In this document: in pieces, positions 5,307 to 52,396 of the stretch
Layout of the letters: the number at the start of each line of letters is the position of its first letter
How positions within the stretch are numbered: position 1 is the stretch's first letter
Source: a candidate division WOR-3 bacterium UBA3073
GTDB lineage: Bacteria; Hydrothermota; UBA3073
Assembly: GCA_002366725.1 (NCBI GenBank)
Contig: DFBT01000095.1
Location: forward strand, 4,910-68,909
Direction: 5' to 3'
Length of the DNA: 64,000 nt
The notes under the pieces: model-generated
Seen by the model: the letters and a program-made list of their open reading frames with translations, nothing else
The model's database searches: none
Told to the model about the DNA's origin: nothing
Position numbers and translations under genes: made by a program

Positions 5307-5452
5307 AAAGCCCCCGTAACAAGATTAAAAATCAAAAATCAAAATGCAAAACTACTGAGGTAAAGGTCTAATTTCTAATGTCAAATGTCTAATCAATGAC
5401 TGACAGTTAGTCATTGGGTCATTGGTCTGTGGTCATTTGGTCATTAGAAATT

Positions 5453-5472
5453 CCTGCCTACCGGTAGGCAGG
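5453..5472. repeat. 20-bp perfect palindrome CCTGCCTACCGGTAGGCAGG
   Basis: Read directly; downstream of def, flanked by TTAGACATT/GTCATTG micro-repeats. Confidence 0.85.
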
Positions 5473-14067: not shown

Positions 14068-15462
14068 TTACCGGGGTAGTGTAAAAAAGATGGCGATTTT
14101 AATCGAGGCTCTCGTGAAGTCGTTGCCATCTTGGTTCTTATAATTTCTTATTCGCTCGATATAAGCACCCGTGGTTATGGAGAATTTTTCTTTAACGAGA
14201 TTCCCCTCAATGCCAGCTCGCAGTCTTTCCTCTTTGCAGCCGGAGGGAATTCTTATCTTCCTCGGTTGTGGATACTTATCCCTCTCGTCCTCCCAGCCAA
14301 CATTCAGTCTTCCGTCACCGTGGGCAAGATACTCCAGTATAAAGGATAAGTAGGTAGTAGGTAGGTAGGAGCAACCTCCCGGTTGCGAAATCTGTGTCCA
14401 GTATTTTGTGAATTCTGTGTATATGTGAATGCAGTCTGATCCACCAAAGAACCCCATGGGAATGCCATTTACCTCCATTGCATTTATTTGGTTGCTGTAG
14501 TCGTGTGTGTATGTCCACCTCGGGATAACGGTCGTCTCTATTCTGAAATCAGAGGATGGTATGCCAAAGAAGTCTGTGAAATATGCTCCAAGCATTGCCC
14601 CCCCCTTAAAGGGTCTATCCTCATGAAAGATGATAGGGTCGTCGAAGAGGAATTCAAGATAGTATTTCTTCCCATTTTTTGTAAATGTAATATCACCACT
14701 TGCAACGAGGTTGTCGTCGTTATCTTTCCCCCTCCTCTGGGTGATGTAATAAAATTCCAACGGGTTTACATACTTCAAAAAGTTCTCTTTTCTGTGCAAA
14801 ACCGCTTCTGTAATACCTATGGTTACACAAGAGAGACACAGCTCCATCCTTTGACAGGCAATTCTCTTTTCACCGGTCGAGTCTTCTATACCCGCATTGA
14901 ATACAAAGAGGTGAAGTGGTCCCCTTCTCACCTCGGCATTGTACAGGAAATCGAGTGGCTGTCCCCTGCCCGAGAGAAGGAGATTGCTTTTATATCCCGG
15001 TCCGATCTTCAACCTGTTTCTACCGATTCCGATAGACATATCATCCTTGTCAAAGAGGAGATAAGCCTTCTCTACACGAACATCAAAATCTATATCCGAT
15101 ATGACCGACTGTGTTTCAAAGTTATGTATCACATATTTTGGCTCCAGGAGTGGGTCATAATATGCCAAGAACTGCTGTCCGTCACCGATCTCATCGAATG
15201 TGCCGATATTAACCTCGCCCTTTAAATGCGGGTGTATGGGAAATCCCTCCCTTATCATGGCCTCAAATATTCCGTCCCTCTTTCTGGCGCCATCGTACAA
15301 TCCGAAACCATAGAACGATATGTCCACCTTCGGGATGAATGATTCCGCTCTCACCTTATCCATTCTCCAGAAGGACATCTCTCCACTTTTCACCACCTCG
15401 TACTCCATATATCGTGGATACACACCAATAATGAGTATGACGAGAAATTGTATCATAATCAC
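14068..15462 (-). CDS. Hypothetical secreted/outer-membrane protein (possibly capsule-assembly Wzi-like beta-barrel)
   Basis: N-terminal hydrophobic signal 'MIMIQFLVILIIGVYP', 464 aa, aromatic-rich, lies between the OM proteins and the glycan locus; family not recognised with certainty. Confidence 0.4.
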   Translation of the reverse strand: MIMIQFLVILIIGVYPRYMEYEVVKSGEMSFWRMDKVRAESFIPKVDISFYGFGLYDGARKRDGIFEAMIREGFPIHPHLKGEVNIGTFDEIGDGQQFLAYYDPLLEPKYVIHNFETQSVISDIDFDVRVEKAYLLFDKDDMSIGIGRNRLKIGPGYKSNLLLSGRGQPLDFLYNAEVRRGPLHLFVFNAGIEDSTGEKRIACQRMELCLSCVTIGITEAVLHRKENFLKYVNPLEFYYITQRRGKDNDDNLVASGDITFTKNGKKYYLEFLFDDPIIFHEDRPFKGGAMLGAYFTDFFGIPSSDFRIETTVIPRWTYTHDYSNQINAMEVNGIPMGFFGGSDCIHIYTEFTKYWTQISQPGGCSYLPTTYLSFILEYLAHGDGRLNVGWEDERDKYPQPRKIRIPSGCKEERLRAGIEGNLVKEKFSITTGAYIERIRNYKNQDGNDFTRASIKIAIFFTLPR

Positions 15463-31772: not shown

Positions 31773-31792
31773 CCTGCCTGCCGGTAGGCAGG
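31773..31792. repeat. 20-bp palindrome CCTGCCTGCCGGTAGGCAGG
   Basis: Downstream of ftcD, preceded by 'ttgaaaattaaa'. Confidence 0.85.
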
Positions 31793-33586: not shown

Positions 33587-33987
33587 ACACCCCCCAGGGT
33601 AAAATCAAATATCAAATATCAAAAATTAAAATTGTTATTTTTGGACGCAGATTTACGCTGATACTTTAAGATTATAGAATTATTAAAGCGACGACCTTTA
33701 GAACAGAGTGCTTGCCAAAGCCAGAGTATAACAGAGTAGTGGATACTCTAATTACTTAATAAATTAATTACTATTTTCGTCTGCGCCTTTCTGCGTTTAC
33801 CCCGTTAAATAGAACTGTTTCGAGAACGCTCTGATATTTATCGTTATATTATTTAACGGGGTGAATCTGTCCCGCTTTCTTCGGGATCCCGCCAAAGGCG
33901 GGACGTCCGATTGGTTTTTTATTTTACACCAACTTTTCACTTTTGTCAAGTCTTTTTCAGAAAACATTGATTTTTTTCAAAAAAAAC

Positions 33988-34016
33988 TTGAAATTTTCGG
34001 AATTTTGTGTTATAAT
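33988..34016 (+). promoter_or_regulatory. Sigma70-like promoter upstream of folK (TTGAAA-17-TATAAT)
   Basis: Consensus-like hexamers with 17-nt spacer ~105 nt upstream of folK start. Confidence 0.5.
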
Positions 34017-34120
34017 ATATAGAAAGGGGATTCAATACATTTTTGTTTTTTTTAAATCTTTGTATCCTGGCTATTTTATGCCGTTTGCTTTTTGGGTGAG
34101 TTAAAGGAGTGTGATATTGA

Positions 34121-35423: not shown

Positions 35424-35524
35424 GAGAACCACAAAGGCACGAAGAACACGAAGTTCACCAAGAATACGAAGGAAAAAATAAATATAAAATCTTGGTGTCT
35501 TTGTGTCTTGGTGGTGAATGGAGT

Positions 35525-37309
35525 ATGGATAAGAGGAATTTTTGTATAATTGCCCATATAGATCACGGAAAGTCTACCCTTGCCGACAGGATGCTTGAGA
35601 TCACGAATACCATCCCGAGGAGACTTATGAGAGACCAGGTTCTGGATAGGATGGAACTTGAAAGGGAGCACGGGATAACGATAAAGGCGCATCCCATAAG
35701 AATGAGATACAAAGGGTATATATTCAACCTCATAGATACCCCGGGACATGTTGATTTTTCTTACGAGGTGACGAGGAGTCTTGCCGCCTGTGAGGGGGCG
35801 GTTCTGCTCGTAGATGCAGTCCAGGGGGTTCAGGCACAGACTGTGAGTAATCTTTATATGGCACTCGATGCCGGTCTCACAATAATTCCGGTTATAAACA
35901 AGATCGACCTTCCAAATGCTCATATTGACGATGTGAGGGAAGAGTTAATGACCCTCTTGGATACAGAAGAGATACTTCTTATATCGGCAAAGAATGGATG
36001 GGGGGTCGTAGAACTTATGGACGCGATAATAGAGAGAATTCCGCCACCGCGAAGTGAGAGTTCTCACTTACGGGCACTCGTATTCGACTCGTACTACGAT
36101 GAATATAGGGGGGCTATCCCCTATGTAAGGATTATGAGCGGGGATGTAAGTGCCGGGGATGTAATTCGATTTTTTAGAACCGGAAAGAGTTTCGAGGCAC
36201 AGGAAGTAGGTTACTTCTCACCCGACAGGACGAAATCAGAGGTGCTTGAATCGGGGGATGTGGGATACATAATATGCAATATAAGAAACGCGAAGGATAT
36301 AAGGACGGGAGACACCATAGTAAAATCAAAAATCAAAAATCAAATATCAAAAATTGGGACTCAAAATGTGGAGCCTCTCCCGGGCTATCGTGAGGTGACT
36401 CCGTATGTTTACGCCGGGGTATATCCAGCGGACGGTGAGGATTACGATTCGTTAAAGGAGGCGCTCGAGAAACTTGCCCTCACAGATTCAAGTCTTGTTT
36501 TCGAACCAGAGACATCGTCTGCACTTGGATTTGGGTTTAGGTGTGGATTTCTCGGTATGCTTCACAAAAAGGTTATAGAGGAAAGACTGGAGAGAGAGAT
36601 GGGTATCGCCATAGTGTCCACCTCCCCCAATATAAAGTACAGGATTGCTCTCCGTAATGGAAGTAGCACCTGGATCGAGAATCCCGGACAGCTTCCCAAA
36701 CGCACCGAAGTTGAGAACATAGATGAACCGATCGTGAGGGCAAAAATATTCACACCCCCGGAGTATATAGGAAAGATACTTGAGCTTTGCGAAGGGAAAA
36801 GGGGTATACAGAGATCCATTCTTTATCACAGGGAGAATATGGTGGAGATAGAATACGAGATGCCACTCTCCGAGATCATATTTGACTTCTACGACAGCCT
36901 GAAGTCCATATCCTGCGGTTTTGCTTCCCTTGACTATGAATTCATTGACTACAGAACCGGAGATTTTGTGAAGCTCGATATACTGGTCAATGGAAAACAG
37001 GTAGATGCCTTTTCAAGTATAATCCCGAGAGAGAGGGCATACCACGAGGGGGTAAGATTGACGAGAAGGCTGAAAAAGATTATACCGAGACAGTTGTTCG
37101 AGGTTGTGATACAGGCATCCAGTGATGGCAGGATCATAGCGAAGTCGAGGATTGCGCCAATAAGAAAGGATGTGACGGCGAAGTGCTATGGTGGGGATAT
37201 AACCAGAAAGCGTAAATTGCTTGAGAGACAGAAAGAGGGGAAGAAAAAGATGAAACGCATAGGGATGGTTGAGATGCCAAAGGAGGCGTTTCTTGTGGTG
37301 AGAGAATGA
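35525..37309 (+). CDS. lepA: Elongation factor 4 (LepA)
   Basis: 'NFCIIAHIDHGKSTLADRMLE', 'DTPGHVDFSYEV', LepA C-terminal domain; contains 12-aa in-frame insertion encoded by the AAAATCAAAAATC repeat. Confidence 0.95.
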   Translation: MDKRNFCIIAHIDHGKSTLADRMLEITNTIPRRLMRDQVLDRMELEREHGITIKAHPIRMRYKGYIFNLIDTPGHVDFSYEVTRSLAACEGAVLLVDAVQGVQAQTVSNLYMALDAGLTIIPVINKIDLPNAHIDDVREELMTLLDTEEILLISAKNGWGVVELMDAIIERIPPPRSESSHLRALVFDSYYDEYRGAIPYVRIMSGDVSAGDVIRFFRTGKSFEAQEVGYFSPDRTKSEVLESGDVGYIICNIRNAKDIRTGDTIVKSKIKNQISKIGTQNVEPLPGYREVTPYVYAGVYPADGEDYDSLKEALEKLALTDSSLVFEPETSSALGFGFRCGFLGMLHKKVIEERLEREMGIAIVSTSPNIKYRIALRNGSSTWIENPGQLPKRTEVENIDEPIVRAKIFTPPEYIGKILELCEGKRGIQRSILYHRENMVEIEYEMPLSEIIFDFYDSLKSISCGFASLDYEFIDYRTGDFVKLDILVNGKQVDAFSSIIPRERAYHEGVRLTRRLKKIIPRQLFEVVIQASSDGRIIAKSRIAPIRKDVTAKCYGGDITRKRKLLERQKEGKKKMKRIGMVEMPKEAFLVVRE

Positions 37310-37426
37310 TTTTGTAACCTTCTGCCTCGAAATGCAACTATATATGTAGCTCCTATCAAATATTCTCTGGTCGAGGTAGCGTGTGGTTAATGAGGCTATG
37401 CTTATGACTTTTACAGGGGGTTCTAA

Positions 37427-38292: not shown

Positions 38293-38312
38293 CCTGCCTA
38301 CCGGCAGGCAGG
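38293..38312. repeat. 20-bp palindrome CCTGCCTACCGGCAGGCAGG followed by TTTAATTTT
   Basis: Between lepB and grpE; terminator-like. Confidence 0.85.
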
Positions 38313-38816: not shown

Positions 38817-40808
38817 ATGGCAAAGAAAGAGAGGGTAATAGGTATAGACCTTGGAACGACAAATTCCTGTGTTGCTATCGTGGATGGTAGTGAGAGGGTT
38901 GTCATACCCAATCCCGAAGGTGGCAGAACCACACCATCTGTGGTTGCATTTAGTACAAAGACAAAGGAATGGGTTATTGGTCCTTCGGCGAAGAGACAGA
39001 TGATAACAAATCCAGAGAATACGATATATTCCATAAAGAGGTTTATGGGCAGGAGATATAACGAGGTCACAGAGGAGATGAAACTTGTGCCGTATAAGGT
39101 TGCAGAGGGTCCACATAAAGATGCAAGGGTACTTGTTGCCGGCAAGCAGTTTTCACCGCCCGAAATATCTTCTATGATACTCAAATACCTTAAGGAGGCA
39201 GCGGAGGCATATCTCGGAGAGAAGGTCACAAAGGCAGTGGTTACCGTTCCCGCTTATTTCAACGATTCGCAGAGACAGGCAACGAAGGATGCCGGAAAGA
39301 TAGCGGGGCTTGAGCTGCCGAGAATCATAAACGAACCAACCGCCGCATCGCTTGCATACGGTCTCGGTTCCTCAAAGAAACAGAGGGTTGCGGTGTTTGA
39401 CCTGGGTGGCGGAACATTCGATATATCCATCCTGGAGATAGACATGAGAGAGACACCGCCGGTAATTGAGGTTATCGCGGTAAATGGTGATACGCACCTC
39501 GGTGGAGACAATTTTGACCAGCAGATATTGGATTGGATTGCCGATGAGTTCCGAAAAGAACACGGAATCGATTTGAGGAAGGACAAGGCAGCCCTTCAGC
39601 GTATCAGAGATGCCGCAGAGAAGGCAAAATGCGAACTCTCTACGGTTCTTGAGATCGACATCAATCTTCCCTTCGTCACGGCGGACGCATCAGGTCCAAA
39701 GCATCTCGAGATGAAGCTGACGAGGGCGAAACTCGAATCGCTGGTGTCGGATCTACTGGGACGCATGAGACCGCCAACGGAAAGGGCGCTTGAAGATGCA
39801 TCGAAGAAGGCAGGCTCCGGTATAAAGGGCATTGAGGATATAGACGAGGTAGTACTCGTGGGTGGTATGACGAGGATGCCAAAGGTGCAGGAGTTTGTCA
39901 AGGTTTTCTTTGGTAGAGAGCCACACAAGGGTGTAAATCCCGACGAGGTTGTTGCGATCGGCGCGAGCATTATGGGTGATATGCTTTCAACGGGAGAAGA
40001 GGGGAAAAAGGAAGTTCTTCTTTTGGATGTAACCCCACTCACACTTGGTATCGAGACACTTGGAGGGGTTATGACGCCGATAATACCGAGAAATACCACG
40101 ATTCCCACCCGTAAGAGTCAGATATTTACGACTGCACAGGATGGACAAACAGCCGTTACCATACATGTACTTCAGGGAGAACGTCCAATGGCAACGGACA
40201 ATCGCACACTCGGCAGATTTGACCTTATGGGTATTCCCCCCGCTCCGAGGGGAATTCCACAGATTGAGGTTACATTTGATACAGATGCCGATGGAATAAT
40301 GCATGTCTCTGCCAAGGACAAGGCAACGAGCAAGGAGCAATCTATCCGTATAACATCCTCCTCGGGGTTATCCAAGGAAGAGATAGAGAAGATGCAGAAG
40401 GAGGCGAAAGAGCACGAGGCGGAAGATAGGAAGAAAAAGGAGCTGATAGAAGCGAGAAACCAGGCAGATACAGTCATTTATTCGGTAGAGAAGTCATTGA
40501 AGGAATTTGGCGATAAGGTGACGCAGGAGGAGAGAGGTGCCATAGAGAATGCCATCGCATCTTTGAAGAAGGTGAAAAATGGTAATGATACAGAGGCAAT
40601 AAAGAAAGCGATGGACGGGGTGCAAAAGGCATCTTATAAATTGGCTGAAGAGATGTACAAGAAGACGGAGGAGGGTAAGACGGAGGAGGGTAAGACGGAG
40701 GAGGGTAAGACAGAGAAGAAGGAGGAACCCAAAAAGGAGGAAGGTCCACAGGAGGCAGAGTACGAGGTGGTAGATGAGGAAGAGAAGAAGAATGATGAGG
40801 ATAAGTAG
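38817..40808 (+). CDS. dnaK: Chaperone DnaK (Hsp70)
   Basis: '[14 protein letters not shown]', 'DLGGGTFD', '[10 protein letters not shown]'; start at ATG after AAAAGGAGGTGA; C-terminal (KTEEG)x3 repeat. Confidence 0.95.
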
Positions 40809-40923
40809 GGCGTAGGGAGTAGGGCGTAAGGCGTAGGCGATTAAGTAGTAGGCAGTATGCAGTTATCTGTAACCTACAATCCAAAATCTACAATCTATCT
40901 GCATGACCCAATGACTAAATGTT

Positions 40924-43560: not shown

Positions 43561-45804
43561 ATGACCTGTACAGAGAGACTTGAATTTGATAAGGTCATCT
43601 CCTTAATTGCACAGAGGGCGGGTACAAAAAGGGGAAAGCACGCAATAGAAAAGCTCTCCCCGCTCAATGAGGCAGAGGCAATAGAAAGACGATATGCATT
43701 CATAAGGGAAGGTATGGAAATGGAGACACCCCCCTTGTACAGCGAGGAGAATCTGTCGGCTATCCTTACGAACCTCGGGGGGGGTGATACACTCTCACCG
43801 CAGGAACTCCTCGAGGTTGCGGGTTTCCTTGATTTCTTGAGGGAACTTAGGAATTATTTTACAAAGAATGATAGATGGCAATATCTATCATCTCTTGTCT
43901 CTTCGATCTCCATCCTCGCCGAGGAAAAACAGAAGATAACGGCTGTGGTAAAAAAAGATGGAGAGATCATCACCGGGAGGATATTGGAGCTGGAGGAGAA
44001 ACTTGGGGATTCCAGACAAAGGTTAAGAGACAGGCTTGGGAAGGGAGTTACCTTAAGGGGCGGGAGATACGTGATACCCGTGAAAGCGGGGAAGAAAGTA
44101 GACGGAATAGTGCACGATATATCGAGGGGAGGGAGTACTCTCTTCGTCGAACCTACGGACTGCGTCCCCCTCAACAACGAGGTTGAAATTGCGGCGAAGG
44201 GAATTGAACAGGAGAAGAAGAGGGTCTTAAGACAGTTAAACGCGTCCCTCAGTAAGAAACTTCCCGAGCTCAAGCATAACCTCGATGTGCTCGGTGAATA
44301 CGACGCCATCGTAGCGATATCCGATATATCGAGGAGAAAGGGATGGCAGATACCCGAGGTTGGGGATAGATTTTTAAGGATAATCGGGGGCAAACATCCG
44401 CTTCTCCAGTTGAAGAGAGATGTTGTCCCGCTCGATATGGAGATCGGTAGAAAATTTACAACTCTTCTTATAACGGGTCCCAATATGGGAGGAAAGACCG
44501 TTGCGTTGCAGACGGTGGGAATCCTCTCAATTATGGCACAATCGGGTATTCCCGTTCCCGCGTCACCCGATTCTGTCTTTCCCGTCTTTGATGAGATATT
44601 CGTCGATATAGGCGATGAGTCCTCCATAGAGACGGGGGAATCGTCATTCTCATTCCATTTAAAAGAACTGAAACGAATGCAGGACCGTGCCGCGGGGAAG
44701 AGTCTCCTTCTCGTTGATGAGATCGATAGGGGCACAGAACCCGACGGTGGAAGGGCGATCGCCTCCGCATTTCTCGAAGTGTTTACCGGGAAGAATGCCA
44801 TCACCATAGCCACTTCCCATTCCACCGCCCTTAAGTTCTTTGTCGCGGGAGAAGATGGTATGCAGAATGCGAGGATGGAAACTAAAAACGGTGCTCCAAC
44901 ATACAGACTTGGTATTGGATTTCCCGGAGAGTCACTGTGGCTTGAGACCGCGAGGTTCGTTGGAATAGATGATGGACTTCTAAAGAGGGCAGAGGAACTC
45001 GCAGACAAGAATATGCTGAAGACCGAGCACCTCTTAAGAGAACTGGAGGAGGAGAAGGGGAGGGCTTCCGAATTGAAGAGAAAGTTAGAAGAGAGGGAAA
45101 AAAATCTCGAAAATCAACTTGAGAGTGCACAATTGCTGAGGAAGAAATGGGGAGATGGGGTAGAAAGACTTAAAAAAGAGAGGAAAAAAATACTTCTCGA
45201 GGCGAGAAAAAGAGTGGAAAATCTTGTGAGGGAAATAAGGGAGAGCAACGCAAAAAGGGAGAGCATAGTTAGGATAAAGCGGGAGATAGAGCAAGAGTTG
45301 AAACGTGAATTGGGAGGTATGAAAAAGGTTGAAACTGAGAAGAGAGTAAAAAACCATAATTTCAGGGTTGGTGATGCGGCGAGAATTCGCTCGCTGGATG
45401 TTGTGGGAAGGATAATAGTTATCACCGAGAAGAGGATAACTCTACAGGTAGATGATGTGCGGTTTGAGATACCGCCAGAATCCGTCGAACCCGTAGACAA
45501 ACCCCGTGAAGTGAGGGCTGAATCACGACACCATGTGAGATTTGCGAGGAATAGAGAGTTAAAAGGTGAGATAAGTATACGCAACCTCAGGGTCGATGAG
45601 GCAATTCCACAACTCGAGAGATACATTGACGATGTGTGGCTGCTGGGAGAGAGAAATTTCAGGATAGTACACGGTGTGGGAAAGGGTATTTTAAAAAATG
45701 CGGTGTGGGAGTTCCTCTCAAAGGATGACAGGATAGAATCGTTTGAACTCGCTCCTTTAGAGGAGGGAGGCGACGGAGTTACGGTGGGGAAGATCAGATT
45801 GTAG
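43561..45804 (+). CDS. mutS2: Endonuclease MutS2 (MutS domain + C-terminal Smr)
   Basis: Walker A 'ITGPNMGGKTV', 'SFSFHLKELKRM', C-terminal Smr 'IVHGVGKGILK'; 747 aa. Confidence 0.9.
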   Translation: MTCTERLEFDKVISLIAQRAGTKRGKHAIEKLSPLNEAEAIERRYAFIREGMEMETPPLYSEENLSAILTNLGGGDTLSPQELLEVAGFLDFLRELRNYFTKNDRWQYLSSLVSSISILAEEKQKITAVVKKDGEIITGRILELEEKLGDSRQRLRDRLGKGVTLRGGRYVIPVKAGKKVDGIVHDISRGGSTLFVEPTDCVPLNNEVEIAAKGIEQEKKRVLRQLNASLSKKLPELKHNLDVLGEYDAIVAISDISRRKGWQIPEVGDRFLRIIGGKHPLLQLKRDVVPLDMEIGRKFTTLLITGPNMGGKTVALQTVGILSIMAQSGIPVPASPDSVFPVFDEIFVDIGDESSIETGESSFSFHLKELKRMQDRAAGKSLLLVDEIDRGTEPDGGRAIASAFLEVFTGKNAITIATSHSTALKFFVAGEDGMQNARMETKNGAPTYRLGIGFPGESLWLETARFVGIDDGLLKRAEELADKNMLKTEHLLRELEEEKGRASELKRKLEEREKNLENQLESAQLLRKKWGDGVERLKKERKKILLEARKRVENLVREIRESNAKRESIVRIKREIEQELKRELGGMKKVETEKRVKNHNFRVGDAARIRSLDVVGRIIVITEKRITLQVDDVRFEIPPESVEPVDKPREVRAESRHHVRFARNRELKGEISIRNLRVDEAIPQLERYIDDVWLLGERNFRIVHGVGKGILKNAVWEFLSKDDRIESFELAPLEEGGDGVTVGKIRL

Positions 45805-45807
45805 TGA

Positions 45808-45860
45808 GGTGATGGGGTGATGGGGTGATGGGGTGATGGGATGGTGGGTTAATGGGATGA
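45808..45860. repeat. Nonamer tandem (GTGATGGGG)x4 + degenerate units
   Basis: Immediately after mutS2 stop. Confidence 0.8.
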
Positions 45861-45904
45861 TGGGTTTTTGGTAGGAGCGACCTCCTGGTCGCGATAGTGA
45901 TGAA

Positions 45905-46318
45905 TTGATAGGAGAAAAAGTGAAAGAGTATACGAAAAGAAGAAATATTAATCGTGGATATATGAAGTTGGAAGTATGGCAAGATGCAATGGAATTATTC
46001 AAACTTACATCTGGTATAATGTGCGGGACTCCCAATGTAGACTTCAGATTGAGGGGGCAGATTCTTGGTTCTGCTCAATCGATTGCCTCCAATATTGCAG
46101 AGGGATACTGCCGAAGGTCTATTAACGAATATTTATATTTTCTAAATGTTGCACTTGGGTCTTCGGGCGAGGTCATGACCCGTGTAATTGGCGTTAAGCT
46201 TATAGGCCAATTGAGGGAAAAAGATTTTGAGAGCTTTGACGAACTTCATTACAAGGTAGAAAATAAGTTGCTTGCGTTAGTTAAGTCGTTACAAGCAAAG
46301 CGGAGTGATGCGGTGTAG
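45905..46318 (+). CDS. Four-helix-bundle protein (TIGR02436; 23S rRNA intervening-sequence-protein family)
   Basis: 'LEVWQDAMELFKL...LGSAQSIASNIAEGYCR...EYLYFLNVALGSSGEV'; true start may be internal (MKLEVWQ ~45962). Confidence 0.75.
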   Translation: MIGEKVKEYTKRRNINRGYMKLEVWQDAMELFKLTSGIMCGTPNVDFRLRGQILGSAQSIASNIAEGYCRRSINEYLYFLNVALGSSGEVMTRVIGVKLIGQLREKDFESFDELHYKVENKLLALVKSLQAKRSDAV

Positions 46319-46320
46319 TC

Positions 46321-46445
46321 CCCATTGACGCATCAACCCATTAACGCATCAACCCATTAACCCATTAACGCATTAACCCATTAACGCATTAACCCATTAA
46401 CGCATTAACCCGTTAACGCATCAACCCATTAACGCATTAACCCAG
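46321..46445. repeat. 16-bp tandem repeat (CCCATTAACGCATTAA)x~7.5, each unit containing GTTAAC
   Basis: Between the four-helix-bundle gene and dnaG. Confidence 0.9.
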
Positions 46446-49716: not shown

Positions 49717-49736
49717 CCTGCCTGCCGGCAGGCAGG
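49717..49736. repeat. 20-bp perfect palindrome CCTGCCTGCCGGCAGGCAGG
   Basis: Downstream of rpoD, flanked by cattttgatt / tttgattc. Confidence 0.85.
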
Positions 49737-50216: not shown

Positions 50217-50910
50217 TATGTTCCGACTTATAATTACAGGTGAGGATGAAGGTGCATATAATATGGCAGTGGATTCCGCCATTCTTGAGAAGTTCAAAGA
50301 GGGTAGTACACCCCCAACCATTCGTTTCTTCTGGTTTGCCCCCCCCTGTGTAAGTATTGGCAGGCTTCAGTGTCCGGATACCGTCGACGGTGCGGAATAT
50401 TACCTCGTAAGGAGACCAACCGGCGGAAGGGCTGTGGTGCATGAGGATGACCTCTCGTACAGTATAAGTTGCAAAAGAGATGATTCCGTGTTTGGAGGGA
50501 ATGTACTGCAGACCTATATGAGGTCGTCCCGTATACTCGTAGAAGCGGTGAGACGGCTTGAAATAGACGCTGAGATAGTCAGAACAAGATCGGGTGGTGA
50601 AAGGTCTCCTTTATGCTTTCAATCTAAGAGCAGATACGAAGTCGTAAGCGGTGATAAAAAGATTATAGGAAGTGCCCAGAAGAGGGAAGGCGAGTTCGTT
50701 CTCCTTCAGGGAAGTATTTCTCTCGATGTCGATATGGAGATGGTTATAGACAAATATAGATCGGTTCTCCACGATATGGGCATAGGATATTCGGTGGATA
50801 GTCTTACAGAGGAAGAGAAAACCCTCGCCCTTCTCCATACCCCCATGTTCAGGATAAACAAAATCAAAAATCAAAAATCAAAAATTAGACGTTGTCCCGA
50901 AGTGTTGTGA
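50203..50910 (+). CDS. Lipoate/octanoate-protein ligase family protein (BPL_LplA_LipB catalytic domain)
   Basis: 'RRPTGGRAVVHEDDLSYS' LplA/LipB core; C-terminal 11 aa encoded by the AAAATCAAAAATC repeat. Confidence 0.7.
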   Translation: MRECNMFRLIITGEDEGAYNMAVDSAILEKFKEGSTPPTIRFFWFAPPCVSIGRLQCPDTVDGAEYYLVRRPTGGRAVVHEDDLSYSISCKRDDSVFGGNVLQTYMRSSRILVEAVRRLEIDAEIVRTRSGGERSPLCFQSKSRYEVVSGDKKIIGSAQKREGEFVLLQGSISLDVDMEMVIDKYRSVLHDMGIGYSVDSLTEEEKTLALLHTPMFRINKIKNQKSKIRRCPEVL

Positions 50911-51100
50911 TAACAAAAAAGAGGACACCTGTCATTGCGAGTGAACGAAGTGAACGTGGCAATCTTATCTTTAATATCCCTTATTGCACTCTGTAACGAA
51001 TTCTGTGCAATAAATCCTCTATTGAAATGAAACTTGTTGACATCCAATATAGATAGCTTTGACGAAATCGCAATACTTTGGGACATTCCCCAAAATTAAA

Positions 51101-51141
51101 CCTGCCTGCCGCCTGCCTACCGCAGGCAGGCGGCAGGCAGG
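51101..51141. repeat. Double/nested palindrome CCTGCCTGCCGCCTGCCTACCGCAGGCAGGCGGCAGGCAGG
   Basis: Downstream of the lplA-like gene. Confidence 0.85.
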
Positions 51142-51448: not shown

Positions 51449-51468
51449 CCTGCCTGCCGGCAGGCAGG
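51449..51468. repeat. 20-bp perfect palindrome CCTGCCTGCCGGCAGGCAGG
   Basis: ~50 nt upstream of fabG. Confidence 0.85.
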
Positions 51469-52376: not shown

Positions 52377-52396
52377 CCTGCCTGACGGCAGGCAGG
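52377..52396. repeat. Palindrome variant CCTGCCTGACGGCAGGCAGG
   Basis: Downstream of tRNA-His and its terminator. Confidence 0.85.

What the first reader, a model, noticed from the sequence alone, without database searches (positions are those of the whole stretch)
36323..36356. 34-nt AT-rich repeat (AAAATCAAAAATCAAAAATCAAATATCAAAAATT) inserted in-frame inside lepA, also forming the C-terminus of the lplA-like gene and occurring intergenically
The same element occurs at 5325-5353 and 33601-33634 (both intergenic), inside lepA at 36323-36356, and at 50857-50890. In lepA it encodes 'KSKIKNQISKIG', which from memory of E. coli LepA (GDT..L.....PAEKALPGF) is a ~12-aa insertion in an otherwise conserved stretch between GDTIV and EPLPGY. 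At 50857-50890 it supplies the last 11 codons and approaches the stop of the LplA-family gene ('[19 protein letters not shown]'). A short intergenic-type repeat occurring in-frame within two unrelated conserved housekeeping genes suggests a tiny insertion element whose length and Lys/Ile/Asn-rich coding are tolerated in surface loops.
Basis: partly seen in the sequence, partly recalled or inferred. Interest (0 to 1): 0.5.

Follow-up and report, generated by a model that had tools for sequence, protein, structure and literature searches.

The report
Seven-base repeat array inside lepA
The "34-nt element" is a short tandem array of the seven-base unit AAAATCA, one of very many 7-8 base arrays in this WOR-3 bacterium's genome; the copy inside the translation factor gene lepA is read as a floppy lysine-rich loop and changes length between close relatives in steps of three units, which keeps the reading frame.

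Summary
The sequence is real, but it is not a 34-nt unit. The exact 34-mer occurs once, at 36322-36355. The other three sites are separate, non-identical arrays of the same heptamer, AAAATCA, with 2.6-4.7 copies.

The window comes from candidate division WOR-3 bacterium JGI_Cruoil_03_44_89. Its intergenic spacers are packed with 7-8 nt tandem arrays: 17 period-7 arrays against about 1 expected.

The lepA array is a lineage-specific expansion. The segment between GDT[IV] and PLPGY is 9 residues in 108 of 109 outgroup LepAs and 14-39 residues in the close WOR-3 relatives. Every relative carries a heptamer array there, but the unit differs (AAAATCA, AAAATGC, AAAAGTC, AAGTCCG).

Proteins that are 98-100% identical outside this loop carry 2, 5 or 8 units, that is, steps of 21 nt. 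This is a frame-constrained microsatellite evolving in concert by slippage, not a mobile insertion element.

The LplA-like tail is read-through into an array that straddles the stop codon.

Intergenic AAAATCA arrays lie antisense and mostly 7-28 nt upstream of start codons (rplM, FTCD, grpE, lepB).

It is a new member of a known kind, the bacterial heptanucleotide simple sequence repeats.

The parts
36322..36356 (+). Heptamer array inside lepA: AAAATCA AAAATCA AAAATCA AATATCA AAAATTG. It is translated as KSKIKNQISKI(G), residues 268-279.
   Evidence: (period 7, 4.7 copies, 92% matches).
35525..37309 (+). lepA (elongation factor 4) coding sequence, 594 aa. It is 100% identical to the WOR-3 bacterium JGI_Cruoil_03_44_89 protein.
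   Evidence: (E=2e-208 to Aquifex LepA 2YWE).
36308..36388 (+). The variable segment GDT-IVKSKIKNQISKIGTQNVE-PLPGY, at the domain II / domain III junction. It has 18 residues after GDTI here and 9 in outgroups.
50860..50887 (+). Heptamer array (AAAATCA x3, then AAAATTA) forming the non-conserved C-terminal tail of the LplA/LipB-family gene. The conserved protein ends at ...TPMFRI.
50218..50910 (+). LplA/LipB-family (lipoate/octanoyl ligase-like) coding sequence. Its stop codon position depends on the array.
33601..33631 (+). Intergenic array (AAAATCA/AATATCA, 4.4 copies). [quoted passage not shown] It is syntenic with arrays in L001 and L082.
5327..5352 (+). Intergenic array (AAAAATC x2, AAAATGC, AAAAC). 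[quoted passage not shown]

Best explanation
The feature is a heptanucleotide simple sequence repeat, (AAAATCA)n, belonging to a dense genome-wide population of 7-8 nt tandem arrays in this WOR-3 (Stahlbacteria-type) lineage.

Shown: arrays fill the intergenic spacers. One array sits in lepA in the linker after domain II. The whole subclade has an array there. Units are homogeneous within a genome but differ between genomes. Near-identical strains differ by exactly three units (21 nt). All observed alleles are in frame and free of stop codons, so the array is translated as a low-complexity, mostly Lys-rich loop.

Inferred: the arrays grow, shrink and homogenise by replication slippage or unequal exchange. 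Within lepA, selection passes only changes that keep the frame (3-unit steps) and only units that lack stop codons in all three frames on the sense strand. This explains why AAAATCA appears in sense orientation there, whereas its complement TGATTTT could not. The peptide itself is probably a tolerated passenger rather than a functional module.

The LplA-like 'C-terminus' arises because an array lies on the stop codon. Where the array has no in-frame TAA, the ORF runs on to the next stop.

The intergenic AAAATCA arrays would put (UGAUUUU)n just 5' of the ribosome-binding site of rplM, FTCD, grpE and lepB. They may influence translation, but that is untested.
For: - Period 7 by TRF at all four sites.
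- The window has 17 period-7 and 6 period-8 arrays, against about 1.2 and 1.8 in shuffles. Nearly all are intergenic or at ORF edges.
- The clade's loci carry 35 period-7 arrays per 100 kb, against 5.7 per 100 kb in 1.3 Mb from 79 unrelated bacteria.
- Across 180 kb of clade DNA, 85 of 114 arrays are intergenic or at ORF edges, and the lepA loop is the only deep-internal array with at least 3.5 copies.
- All relatives have a heptamer array at the same lepA position: AAAATCA (window, L081), AAAATGC (L082-85, L001), AAAAGTC (L086), AAGTCCG (L087). L084 and L086 differ by the same TG->GT change in every unit, which is concerted evolution.
- P0244/L091, P0003/L082 and P0246 are 98-100% identical outside the loop and carry 2, 5 and 8 units, that is +7 and +14 aa.
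- Segment lengths of 69, 81, 84, 90, 111 and 144 nt are all multiples of 3.
- Outgroups have a fixed 9-residue segment.
- Pfam domain 2 ends at residue 266/267 and domain III starts at about 294.
- LplA orthologs stop at FRI* in distant relatives. In close relatives the stop lies inside the array at different places.
- All 12 intergenic AAAATCA arrays (about 6 independent sites) are antisense to the downstream gene, and 10 of them lie within 28 nt of its start.
- Heptamer SSRs are a described class with similar placement (PMC4679880, PMC4692102).
Against: - Slippage was not observed directly, because no reads are available.
- The AAAATCA-type and AAAATGC-type alleles differ by 9 or 12 nt, not by whole units. 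The AAAATCA type occurs both in the window's lineage and in P0002/P0243, whose closest relatives carry AAAATGC. So recombination between strains, or more complex events, are also involved.
- The L001 allele has a 33-nt GC-rich non-repeat core between two arrays, of unknown origin.
- No clade member has lost the array in spite of its instability, which could hint at some benefit.
- The same unit variant, AATATCA, recurs in arrays at unlinked loci. Pure neutral slippage does not predict this.
- The structure model was too poor to localise the loop (pLDDT 66).
Confidence: 0.8

Rival explanations
1. This is the first reader's view: a tiny mobile insertion element of about 34 nt that has landed in intergenic DNA and, in frame, in two housekeeping genes.
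For: The same heptamer family, with similar ends (…ATCAAAAATT), occurs at three of the four window sites. Shared unit variants (AATATCA, AAAATTA, AAAATGC) appear at unlinked loci. The original seeding of an array in lepA could have been an insertion, and L001 shows that extra DNA can enter the array.
Against: Only one copy matches within 3 mismatches. The copies are 25-35 nt long with different unit counts. No terminal inverted repeats or target duplications are visible. The sites are syntenic in relatives rather than present or absent. The lepA array predates the split of proteins 77-87% identical. The variation is in whole heptamer units.
Confidence: 0.06
2. The arrays are functional RNA- or DNA-level binding sites for a lineage-specific single-strand-binding regulator (Csp-, S1- or Hfq-like, one protein per heptamer). 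They would form a post-transcriptional regulon, and the lepA internal array would be part of it.
For: All 12 intergenic AAAATCA arrays are antisense to the downstream gene and 10 lie 7-28 nt from its start codon, at the syntenic genes rplM, FTCD, grpE and lepB. A promoter-like site at 33949-33921 places the 33601 array inside the FTCD 5' UTR. Beggiatoaceae TAACTGA repeats have the same placement, with the same candidate binders proposed (PMC4679880).
Against: The lepA and lplA copies are in the opposite orientation (AAAAUCA in the mRNA). In lepA the unit sequence is not conserved between relatives. The window's own grpE upstream site has decayed to about 1.5 units and is interrupted by a hairpin. 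Syntenic spacers carry unrelated units in different relatives. There is no Rfam match. Only about 6 sites are independent.
Confidence: 0.12
3. The lepA array is a contingency (phase-variation) switch. Gain or loss of one heptamer shifts the frame and turns LepA off reversibly.
For: The unit length is not a multiple of 3, and the array demonstrably changes copy number between near-identical strains. LepA is dispensable in E. coli under standard conditions (abstract of PMC4245954). Two assemblies break at or near the array.
Against: None of 25 loop-spanning sequences is out of frame, although ORF-based databases under-sample broken genes. There are only 2-8 imperfect units, which is short for high-frequency switching. 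The organism is a free-living sediment or oil-reservoir bacterium, not a host-adapted pathogen.
Confidence: 0.04
4. The array is an assembly or sequencing artefact in a low-complexity stretch.
For: Low-complexity A-rich repeats can be mis-assembled, and two contigs of relatives end at the array.
Against: The identical protein is held by several sources (NCBI, JGI, ENA, Logan). A second assembly (P0241, 99% identical) has the same KSKIKNQISKIG loop. Eight relatives from independent metagenomes have arrays at the same place, all in frame.
Confidence: 0.01

Closest known systems
TAACTGA heptamer direct repeats of marine Beggiatoaceae, also found in some Cyanobacteria and Bacteroidetes (MacGregor 2015, PMC4679880)
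   Same: Both are 7-nt units in short tandem sets (2-6 copies), overwhelmingly intergenic and mostly a few nucleotides upstream of start codons. Some overlap stop codons. There are rare in-ORF copies at protein termini or in a variable surface loop (an RNA polymerase beta'-like ORF). Orientation inside ORFs is dictated by stop codons.
   Different: The unit sequence and the phylum differ. Here many different units coexist, rather than one dominant heptamer. The start-proximal arrays are antisense (UGAUUUU in the mRNA). Here there is also direct comparative evidence of 3-unit length alleles and unit turnover inside a universal gene.
Cyanobacterial STRR heptanucleotide repeats (Calothrix/Nostoc) and GGGAATC-type heptamer repeats of Xanthomonas and Nostoc (Rehm et al. 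2015, PMC4692102)
   Same: They are dispersed heptameric SSRs, over-represented in non-coding DNA, within about 50 bp of ORF starts or stops and sometimes overlapping stop codons, with variable copy number.
   Different: Those units are G-rich and form G-quadruplexes, with a preference for 4 units. The AAAATCA family is A/T-rich and cannot form G4. The lineage is different. The STRR unit sequences are recalled from memory and were not compared here.
Long simple sequence repeats in prokaryotes (Mrazek, Guo and Shah 2007, as summarised in PMC4679880)
   Same: Heptanucleotide repeats are the most abundant long-SSR class in many genomes. Slippage is the proposed cause. Units that are not multiples of 3 are rare inside genes.
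   Different: That survey predates WOR-3 genomes. The in-gene heptamer array that persists by 3-unit steps is a specific case not described there, as far as the texts I read show.
Phase-variable contingency loci of host-adapted pathogens (Neisseria, Haemophilus, Helicobacter)
   Same: They have an SSR inside an ORF with a unit that is not a multiple of 3, and copy-number change by slipped-strand mispairing.
   Different: No out-of-frame alleles are seen here. The tract is short and imperfect. It lies in a housekeeping translation factor, not a surface or restriction-modification gene.
MITEs and REP-like miniature elements
   Same: They are short, dispersed, mostly intergenic repeats that are occasionally tolerated in frame in genes.
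   Different: The AAAATCA arrays have no terminal inverted repeats, no fixed length and no presence/absence polymorphism. The separate 20-nt palindrome CCTGCCTRCCGGYAGGCAGG in this window fits that class better.

Membership tests
Simple sequence repeat / VNTR evolving by slipped-strand mispairing | Head-to-tail copies of a short unit | tested here: met
   TRF finds period 7 with 2.6-4.7 copies and 87-100% matches at all four sites.
Simple sequence repeat / VNTR evolving by slipped-strand mispairing | Copy-number polymorphism in whole units between close relatives | tested here: met
   There are 2, 5 and 8 AAAATGC units in LepAs that are 98-100% identical outside the loop. L091 and L082 differ by exactly 21 nt.
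Simple sequence repeat / VNTR evolving by slipped-strand mispairing | Concerted evolution: units homogeneous within an array and divergent between lineages | tested here: met
   The units AAAATCA, AAAATGC, AAAAGTC and AAGTCCG occupy the same lepA position. The same 2-nt change is present in every unit when L084 is compared with L086.
Simple sequence repeat / VNTR evolving by slipped-strand mispairing | Measured slippage (within-population length heterogeneity or mutation rate) | not testable with these tools
   No reads are available. There is only indirect evidence: contig breaks at the array in L096 and L097.
Dispersed heptanucleotide repeats (STRR / TAACTGA / GGGAATC type) | Many dispersed 7-nt arrays, enriched over chance and mainly non-coding | tested here: met
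   The window has 17 period-7 arrays against 1.15 expected. The clade has 35 per 100 kb against 5.7 per 100 kb in unrelated loci. 85 of 114 arrays are intergenic or at ORF edges, in 16% of the DNA.
Dispersed heptanucleotide repeats (STRR / TAACTGA / GGGAATC type) | Same unit sequence as a described family | tested here: not met
   The units here are AAAATCA, GTCTAAT, ATTGAAG, GTCTGTG, GTAGGGC and others. No TAACTGA or GGGAATC arrays are among them. It is therefore analogous, not the same family.
Dispersed heptanucleotide repeats (STRR / TAACTGA / GGGAATC type) | Placement close to start or stop codons | tested here: met
   10 of 12 intergenic AAAATCA arrays lie 7-28 nt from a start codon. The lplA and dnaK arrays lie on stop codons.
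Miniature mobile insertion element (MITE-like) | Copies of fixed length with defined ends, terminal inverted repeats and target-site duplication | tested here: not met
   There is one copy within 3 mismatches and the lengths vary. No inverted repeats or duplications are visible in the flanks read.
Miniature mobile insertion element (MITE-like) | Presence/absence polymorphism at orthologous sites | tested here: not met
   Arrays are present at the syntenic lepA, FTCD-upstream and lplA-3' sites in all close relatives examined. The only empty lplA site is in a more distant relative, L089.
Phase-variable contingency locus | Out-of-frame (OFF) alleles coexisting with in-frame alleles | tested here: inconclusive
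   0 of 25 loop-spanning protein sequences is frameshifted. However, protein databases are biased towards intact ORFs and no reads were available.
LepA / elongation factor 4 (host gene) | GTP_EFTU, domain 2, EFG_C and LepA_C domains, with full-length similarity to solved LepA structures | tested here: met
   Pfam. E=2e-208 to 2YWE and 4e-181 to E. coli 3CB4, over residues 4-593.

The most novel reading that the evidence does not exclude
The AAAATCA-family arrays may be more than slippage debris. They could be recognition sites of a lineage-specific single-strand nucleic-acid-binding factor, with (UGAUUUU)n immediately 5' of the ribosome-binding sites of rplM, grpE, lepB and FTCD. On this reading the persistent, never-lost array inside lepA is either co-opted (a tunable Lys-rich linker next to the 30S-binding domain II) or acts as a +/-1-unit on/off switch for LepA.
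Probability: 0.1. Interest if true: 0.65.

Novelty: new member of a known kind. Interest (0 to 1): 0.4.

Why it matters
It shows, with comparative data, how a repeat whose unit is not a multiple of three can live for a long time inside a highly conserved gene. It sits in a permissive interdomain linker. It is restricted to stop-free units on the sense strand. It changes length only in three-unit (21-nt, 7-aa) steps, while its unit sequence turns over in concert.

There are practical consequences. Such arrays create spurious "insertions" and variable C-termini in annotated proteins of WOR-3/Stahlbacteria MAGs. They break assemblies. They could also serve as strain markers.

The start-codon-proximal arrays extend the still unexplained heptamer-repeat phenomenon to a fourth, unrelated phylum. 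It was known before from Cyanobacteria, Beggiatoaceae and Xanthomonas. That argues for a general mechanism rather than lineage-specific horizontal spread.

Tried and rejected
- **Replication origin next to the 33601 array.** GC skew flips at about 33.6-34.1 kb, but there is no DnaA-box cluster there and the flip coincides with a switch in gene orientation. An origin is not shown.
- **Arrays as promoters.** The consensus scan places promoter-like sites elsewhere in the spacer (33949-33921 minus strand, 33988-34016 plus strand), not in the arrays.
- **Known RNA family.** An Rfam scan of the whole window found only one tRNA.
- **The 33-nt GC-rich core of the L001 allele as a dispersed element.** There are no other copies in the clade DNA held.
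- **Structure model to localise the loop.** AlphaFold2 with 16 sequences gave pLDDT 66, with residues 270-306 below 50, which is too poor to use. No fold search was run. Pfam domain boundaries and alignment to solved LepAs were used instead.
- **Metagenome scan for more alleles.** It gave only 3 relevant loci, one of them new.
- **Other in-gene heptamer arrays.** The 14349-14369 array and similar ones have 3 copies or fewer, at the noise level.
- **Splicing or ribosomal bypass of the array.** Rejected, because all alleles preserve the frame and lack stop codons. That would not be required if the stretch were skipped.

Full report
**1. The observation**

The 34-mer AAAATCAAAAATCAAAAATCAAATATCAAAAATT is at 36322-36355, one base to the left of the coordinates given. 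It lies in frame in a 594-codon lepA gene (35525-37309, + strand) and encodes KSKIKNQISKI.

At up to 3 mismatches it is unique in the window.
- 5327-5352 reads AAAAATC AAAAATC AAAATGC AAAAC.
- 33601-33631 reads AAAATCA AATATCA AATATCA AAAATTA AAA.
- 50860-50887 reads AAAATCA x3, then AAAATTA.

Tandem Repeats Finder gives period 7 at all four sites, with 2.6-4.7 copies. The family is far beyond chance: a 15-mer of two units finds 14 matches against 1.4 expected, 12 of them at these sites.

**2. The genomic background**

LepA is 100% identical to the protein of candidate division WOR-3 bacterium JGI_Cruoil_03_44_89. The closest species-representative genome is a Candidatus Stahlbacteria MAG (L001).

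The window is full of short tandem arrays. After collapsing overlaps there are 17 arrays of period 7, 6 of period 8, and further arrays of period 14 or 16. Composition-matched shuffles give about 1.2 and 1.8. Many different units are involved, for example GTCTAAT, GTCATTTG, ATTGAAG, TCCTTTT, GATTACC, GTCTGTG, GTAGGGC, GGTGATGG and CCCATTAA. A 200-nt spacer often consists of three or four different arrays in a row.

In 180 kb from this clade, period-7 arrays occur at 35 per 100 kb. In 1.3 Mb around lepA of 79 unrelated bacteria the figure is 5.7 per 100 kb. Of 114 arrays in the clade's loci, 85 are intergenic or at ORF edges, which together make up 16% of the DNA. Syntenic spacers (panC-lepA, lepA-lepB) hold quite different units in different relatives, so turnover is fast.

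**3. The lepA copy**

Alignment with solved LepA structures shows 9 extra residues between GDTI and EP(L/V)PG(Y/F). Among the 120 best database hits, the segment after GDT[IV] and before PLPGY is:
- exactly 9 residues in 108 of 109 alignable outgroups (55-62% identity, many phyla);
- 7 residues in one outgroup;
- 14-21 residues in the seven cluster representatives of the close WOR-3 clade (77-100% identity);
- 39 residues in L001.

Pfam places the end of domain 2 at residue 266/267 and the start of domain III near residue 294. The array peptide (residues 268-279) is therefore in the linker between domains II and III.

I fetched the DNA of eight relatives. Every one has a heptamer array at this exact position, but with different units:
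- AAAATCA in the window and L081;
- AAAATGC in L082/83, L084 and L085;
- AAAAGTC in L086;
- AAGTCCG in L087;
- in L001, an AAAATGC/AAAGTGC array, then a 33-nt GC-rich non-repeat core, then an AAAACGC array.

L084 and L086 have the same length and differ by the same TG->GT change in each of four units. That is the signature of concerted evolution within an array.

**4. Length alleles**

Members of the 90%-identity clusters give a finer view. Among proteins 95-100% identical outside the loop, the alleles are:
- KMQNAK-IEIQN;
- the same plus 7 aa (P0003, which is 100% identical to P0244 elsewhere);
- the same plus 14 aa (P0246);
- the 39-residue complex allele;
- an AAAATCA-type allele (P0002, P0243).

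At the DNA level, L091 and L082 differ by exactly (AAAATGC)3. The allele series is therefore 2, 5 and 8 units. All segment lengths seen (69, 81, 84, 90, 111, 144 nt) are multiples of three. None of 25 loop-spanning sequences is frameshifted.

All units used in lepA lack stop codons in all three frames on the sense strand. The complement of AAAATCA, TGATTTT, would not. Frame and stop-codon constraints show that the array is translated, not skipped.

Two assemblies break at or next to the array.

**5. The LplA-like gene**

The conserved protein ends at ...TPMFRI. More distant WOR-3 orthologs stop right there (L089: ATT TAA). In close relatives an AAAATYA array lies on the stop codon, and the stop falls at different places within it or after it. 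The tails are GNIKN*, DNIRTEKLKIKN*, and here [17 protein letters not shown]. The 'C-terminus' is read-through into a 3'-flanking array and is not a conserved part of the enzyme.

**6. The intergenic copies**

In the window and relatives, all 12 intergenic AAAATCA-family arrays (about 6 independent sites) are antisense to the downstream gene. Ten of them lie 7-28 nt from its start codon, at rplM, the FTCD gene, grpE and lepB. A promoter-like site at 33949-33921 would put the 33601 array in the FTCD 5' UTR as (UGAUUUU)n just before the ribosome-binding site.

This placement matches what MacGregor described for TAACTGA repeats in Beggiatoaceae. There, S1, Csp or CsrA proteins were suggested as binders (PMC4679880).

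Function here is untested and has evidence against it. The window's own grpE site has decayed and is interrupted by a palindromic hairpin. Unit sequences are not conserved in lepA.

**7. Interpretation**

The best-supported reading (confidence about 0.8) is a heptanucleotide microsatellite/VNTR maintained by slippage and unequal exchange. It is tolerated in lepA because it sits in an interdomain linker. Selection filters it to in-frame, stop-free states.

A discrete mobile 34-nt element is not supported. There are no fixed-length copies, no terminal repeats and no empty orthologous sites among close relatives, and the array is old.

Three points remain open:
- how an array first entered lepA;
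- the non-unit differences between the AAAATCA and AAAATGC allele types, and their patchy distribution among near-identical strains, which suggests recombination;
- the origin of the L001 core.

**8. Comparison with known systems and novelty**

Heptamer SSRs are a described class. They are the most abundant long SSRs in many bacteria. Examples are the STRR repeats of cyanobacteria, GGGAATC in Xanthomonas and Nostoc, and TAACTGA in Beggiatoaceae. In those systems, in-ORF copies at termini or in surface loops have been noted.

The unit sequences here differ, so this is an analogue rather than a member of those named families. I found no mention of repeats in a recent WOR-3 genomics paper.

New here are the phylum, the position in a universal translation factor, and the clear three-unit allele series with unit turnover. 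I rate it a new member of a known kind, with interest about 0.4.

Noticed in passing
window 5453-5472, 31773-31792, 38293-38312, 49717-49736, 51112-51130, 51449-51468, 52377-52396: A near-perfect 20-nt palindrome, CCTGCCTRCCGGYAGGCAGG, occurs at 7 intergenic sites (0 expected). In the lepA-lepB spacer it is present in L082 and L001 but absent in the otherwise near-identical L081. It therefore behaves like a REP-like or miniature hairpin element that is gained and lost.
   Followed up: partly
window about 33600-34120: GC skew changes sign here, and all genes to the left are on the minus strand while all to the right are on the plus strand. No DnaA-box cluster was found in the 530-nt divergent spacer, so a replication origin is not shown. 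The spacer has two strong divergent promoter-like sites (33949-33921 minus strand, 33988-34016 plus strand), and the surrounding sequence is conserved in L001.
   Followed up: partly
window 35424-35524 and 37310-37426; L001, L081-L087 syntenic spacers: The same spacers hold unrelated 7-8 nt arrays in different relatives: GTGGAAT x8-12, AATGACCT x~10, TTGAACC x5, GGTTCAC x9, and CACGAAG plus TCTTGGTG. The spacers stay 'array-filled' while the units turn over.
   Followed up: partly
window 40662-40715 and 40805-40837: The dnaK C-terminal tail contains a 15-nt in-frame repeat (KTEEG x3.6). A GTAGGGC heptamer array starts exactly on the dnaK stop codon (TAG within GTAGGGC).
   Followed up: no
L001 10833-10866: The lepA loop of the Stahlbacteria MAG carries a 33-nt GC-rich non-repeat core (CCCCGCCTTTGACGGCATTCCGCTCCCGCGGGAC) between two heptamer arrays, translated as PPLTAFRSRGT. 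No other copy exists in the clade DNA held. Its origin is unknown.
   Followed up: partly
window 50928-50965; L089 spacer after the lplA-like gene: A 'GTCATTGCGAG...GAAGCAATC'-type short element lies downstream of the lplA-like gene in the window. A related one is in L089. It may be another dispersed small repeat.
   Followed up: no
window 46321-46444 and 45801-45864: These are the longest arrays in the window: CCCATTAA/CGCATTAA x15.5 (124 nt) and GGTGATGG x7. They flank a small ORF (45905-46318) that matches the 23S rRNA-intervening-sequence protein family position seen in L086.
   Followed up: no
L096 end (3757) and L097 start (1): Two independent MAG contigs end about 45 nt before the lepA array or start inside it. 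This suggests that strain-level length heterogeneity breaks assemblies at this locus.
   Followed up: partly
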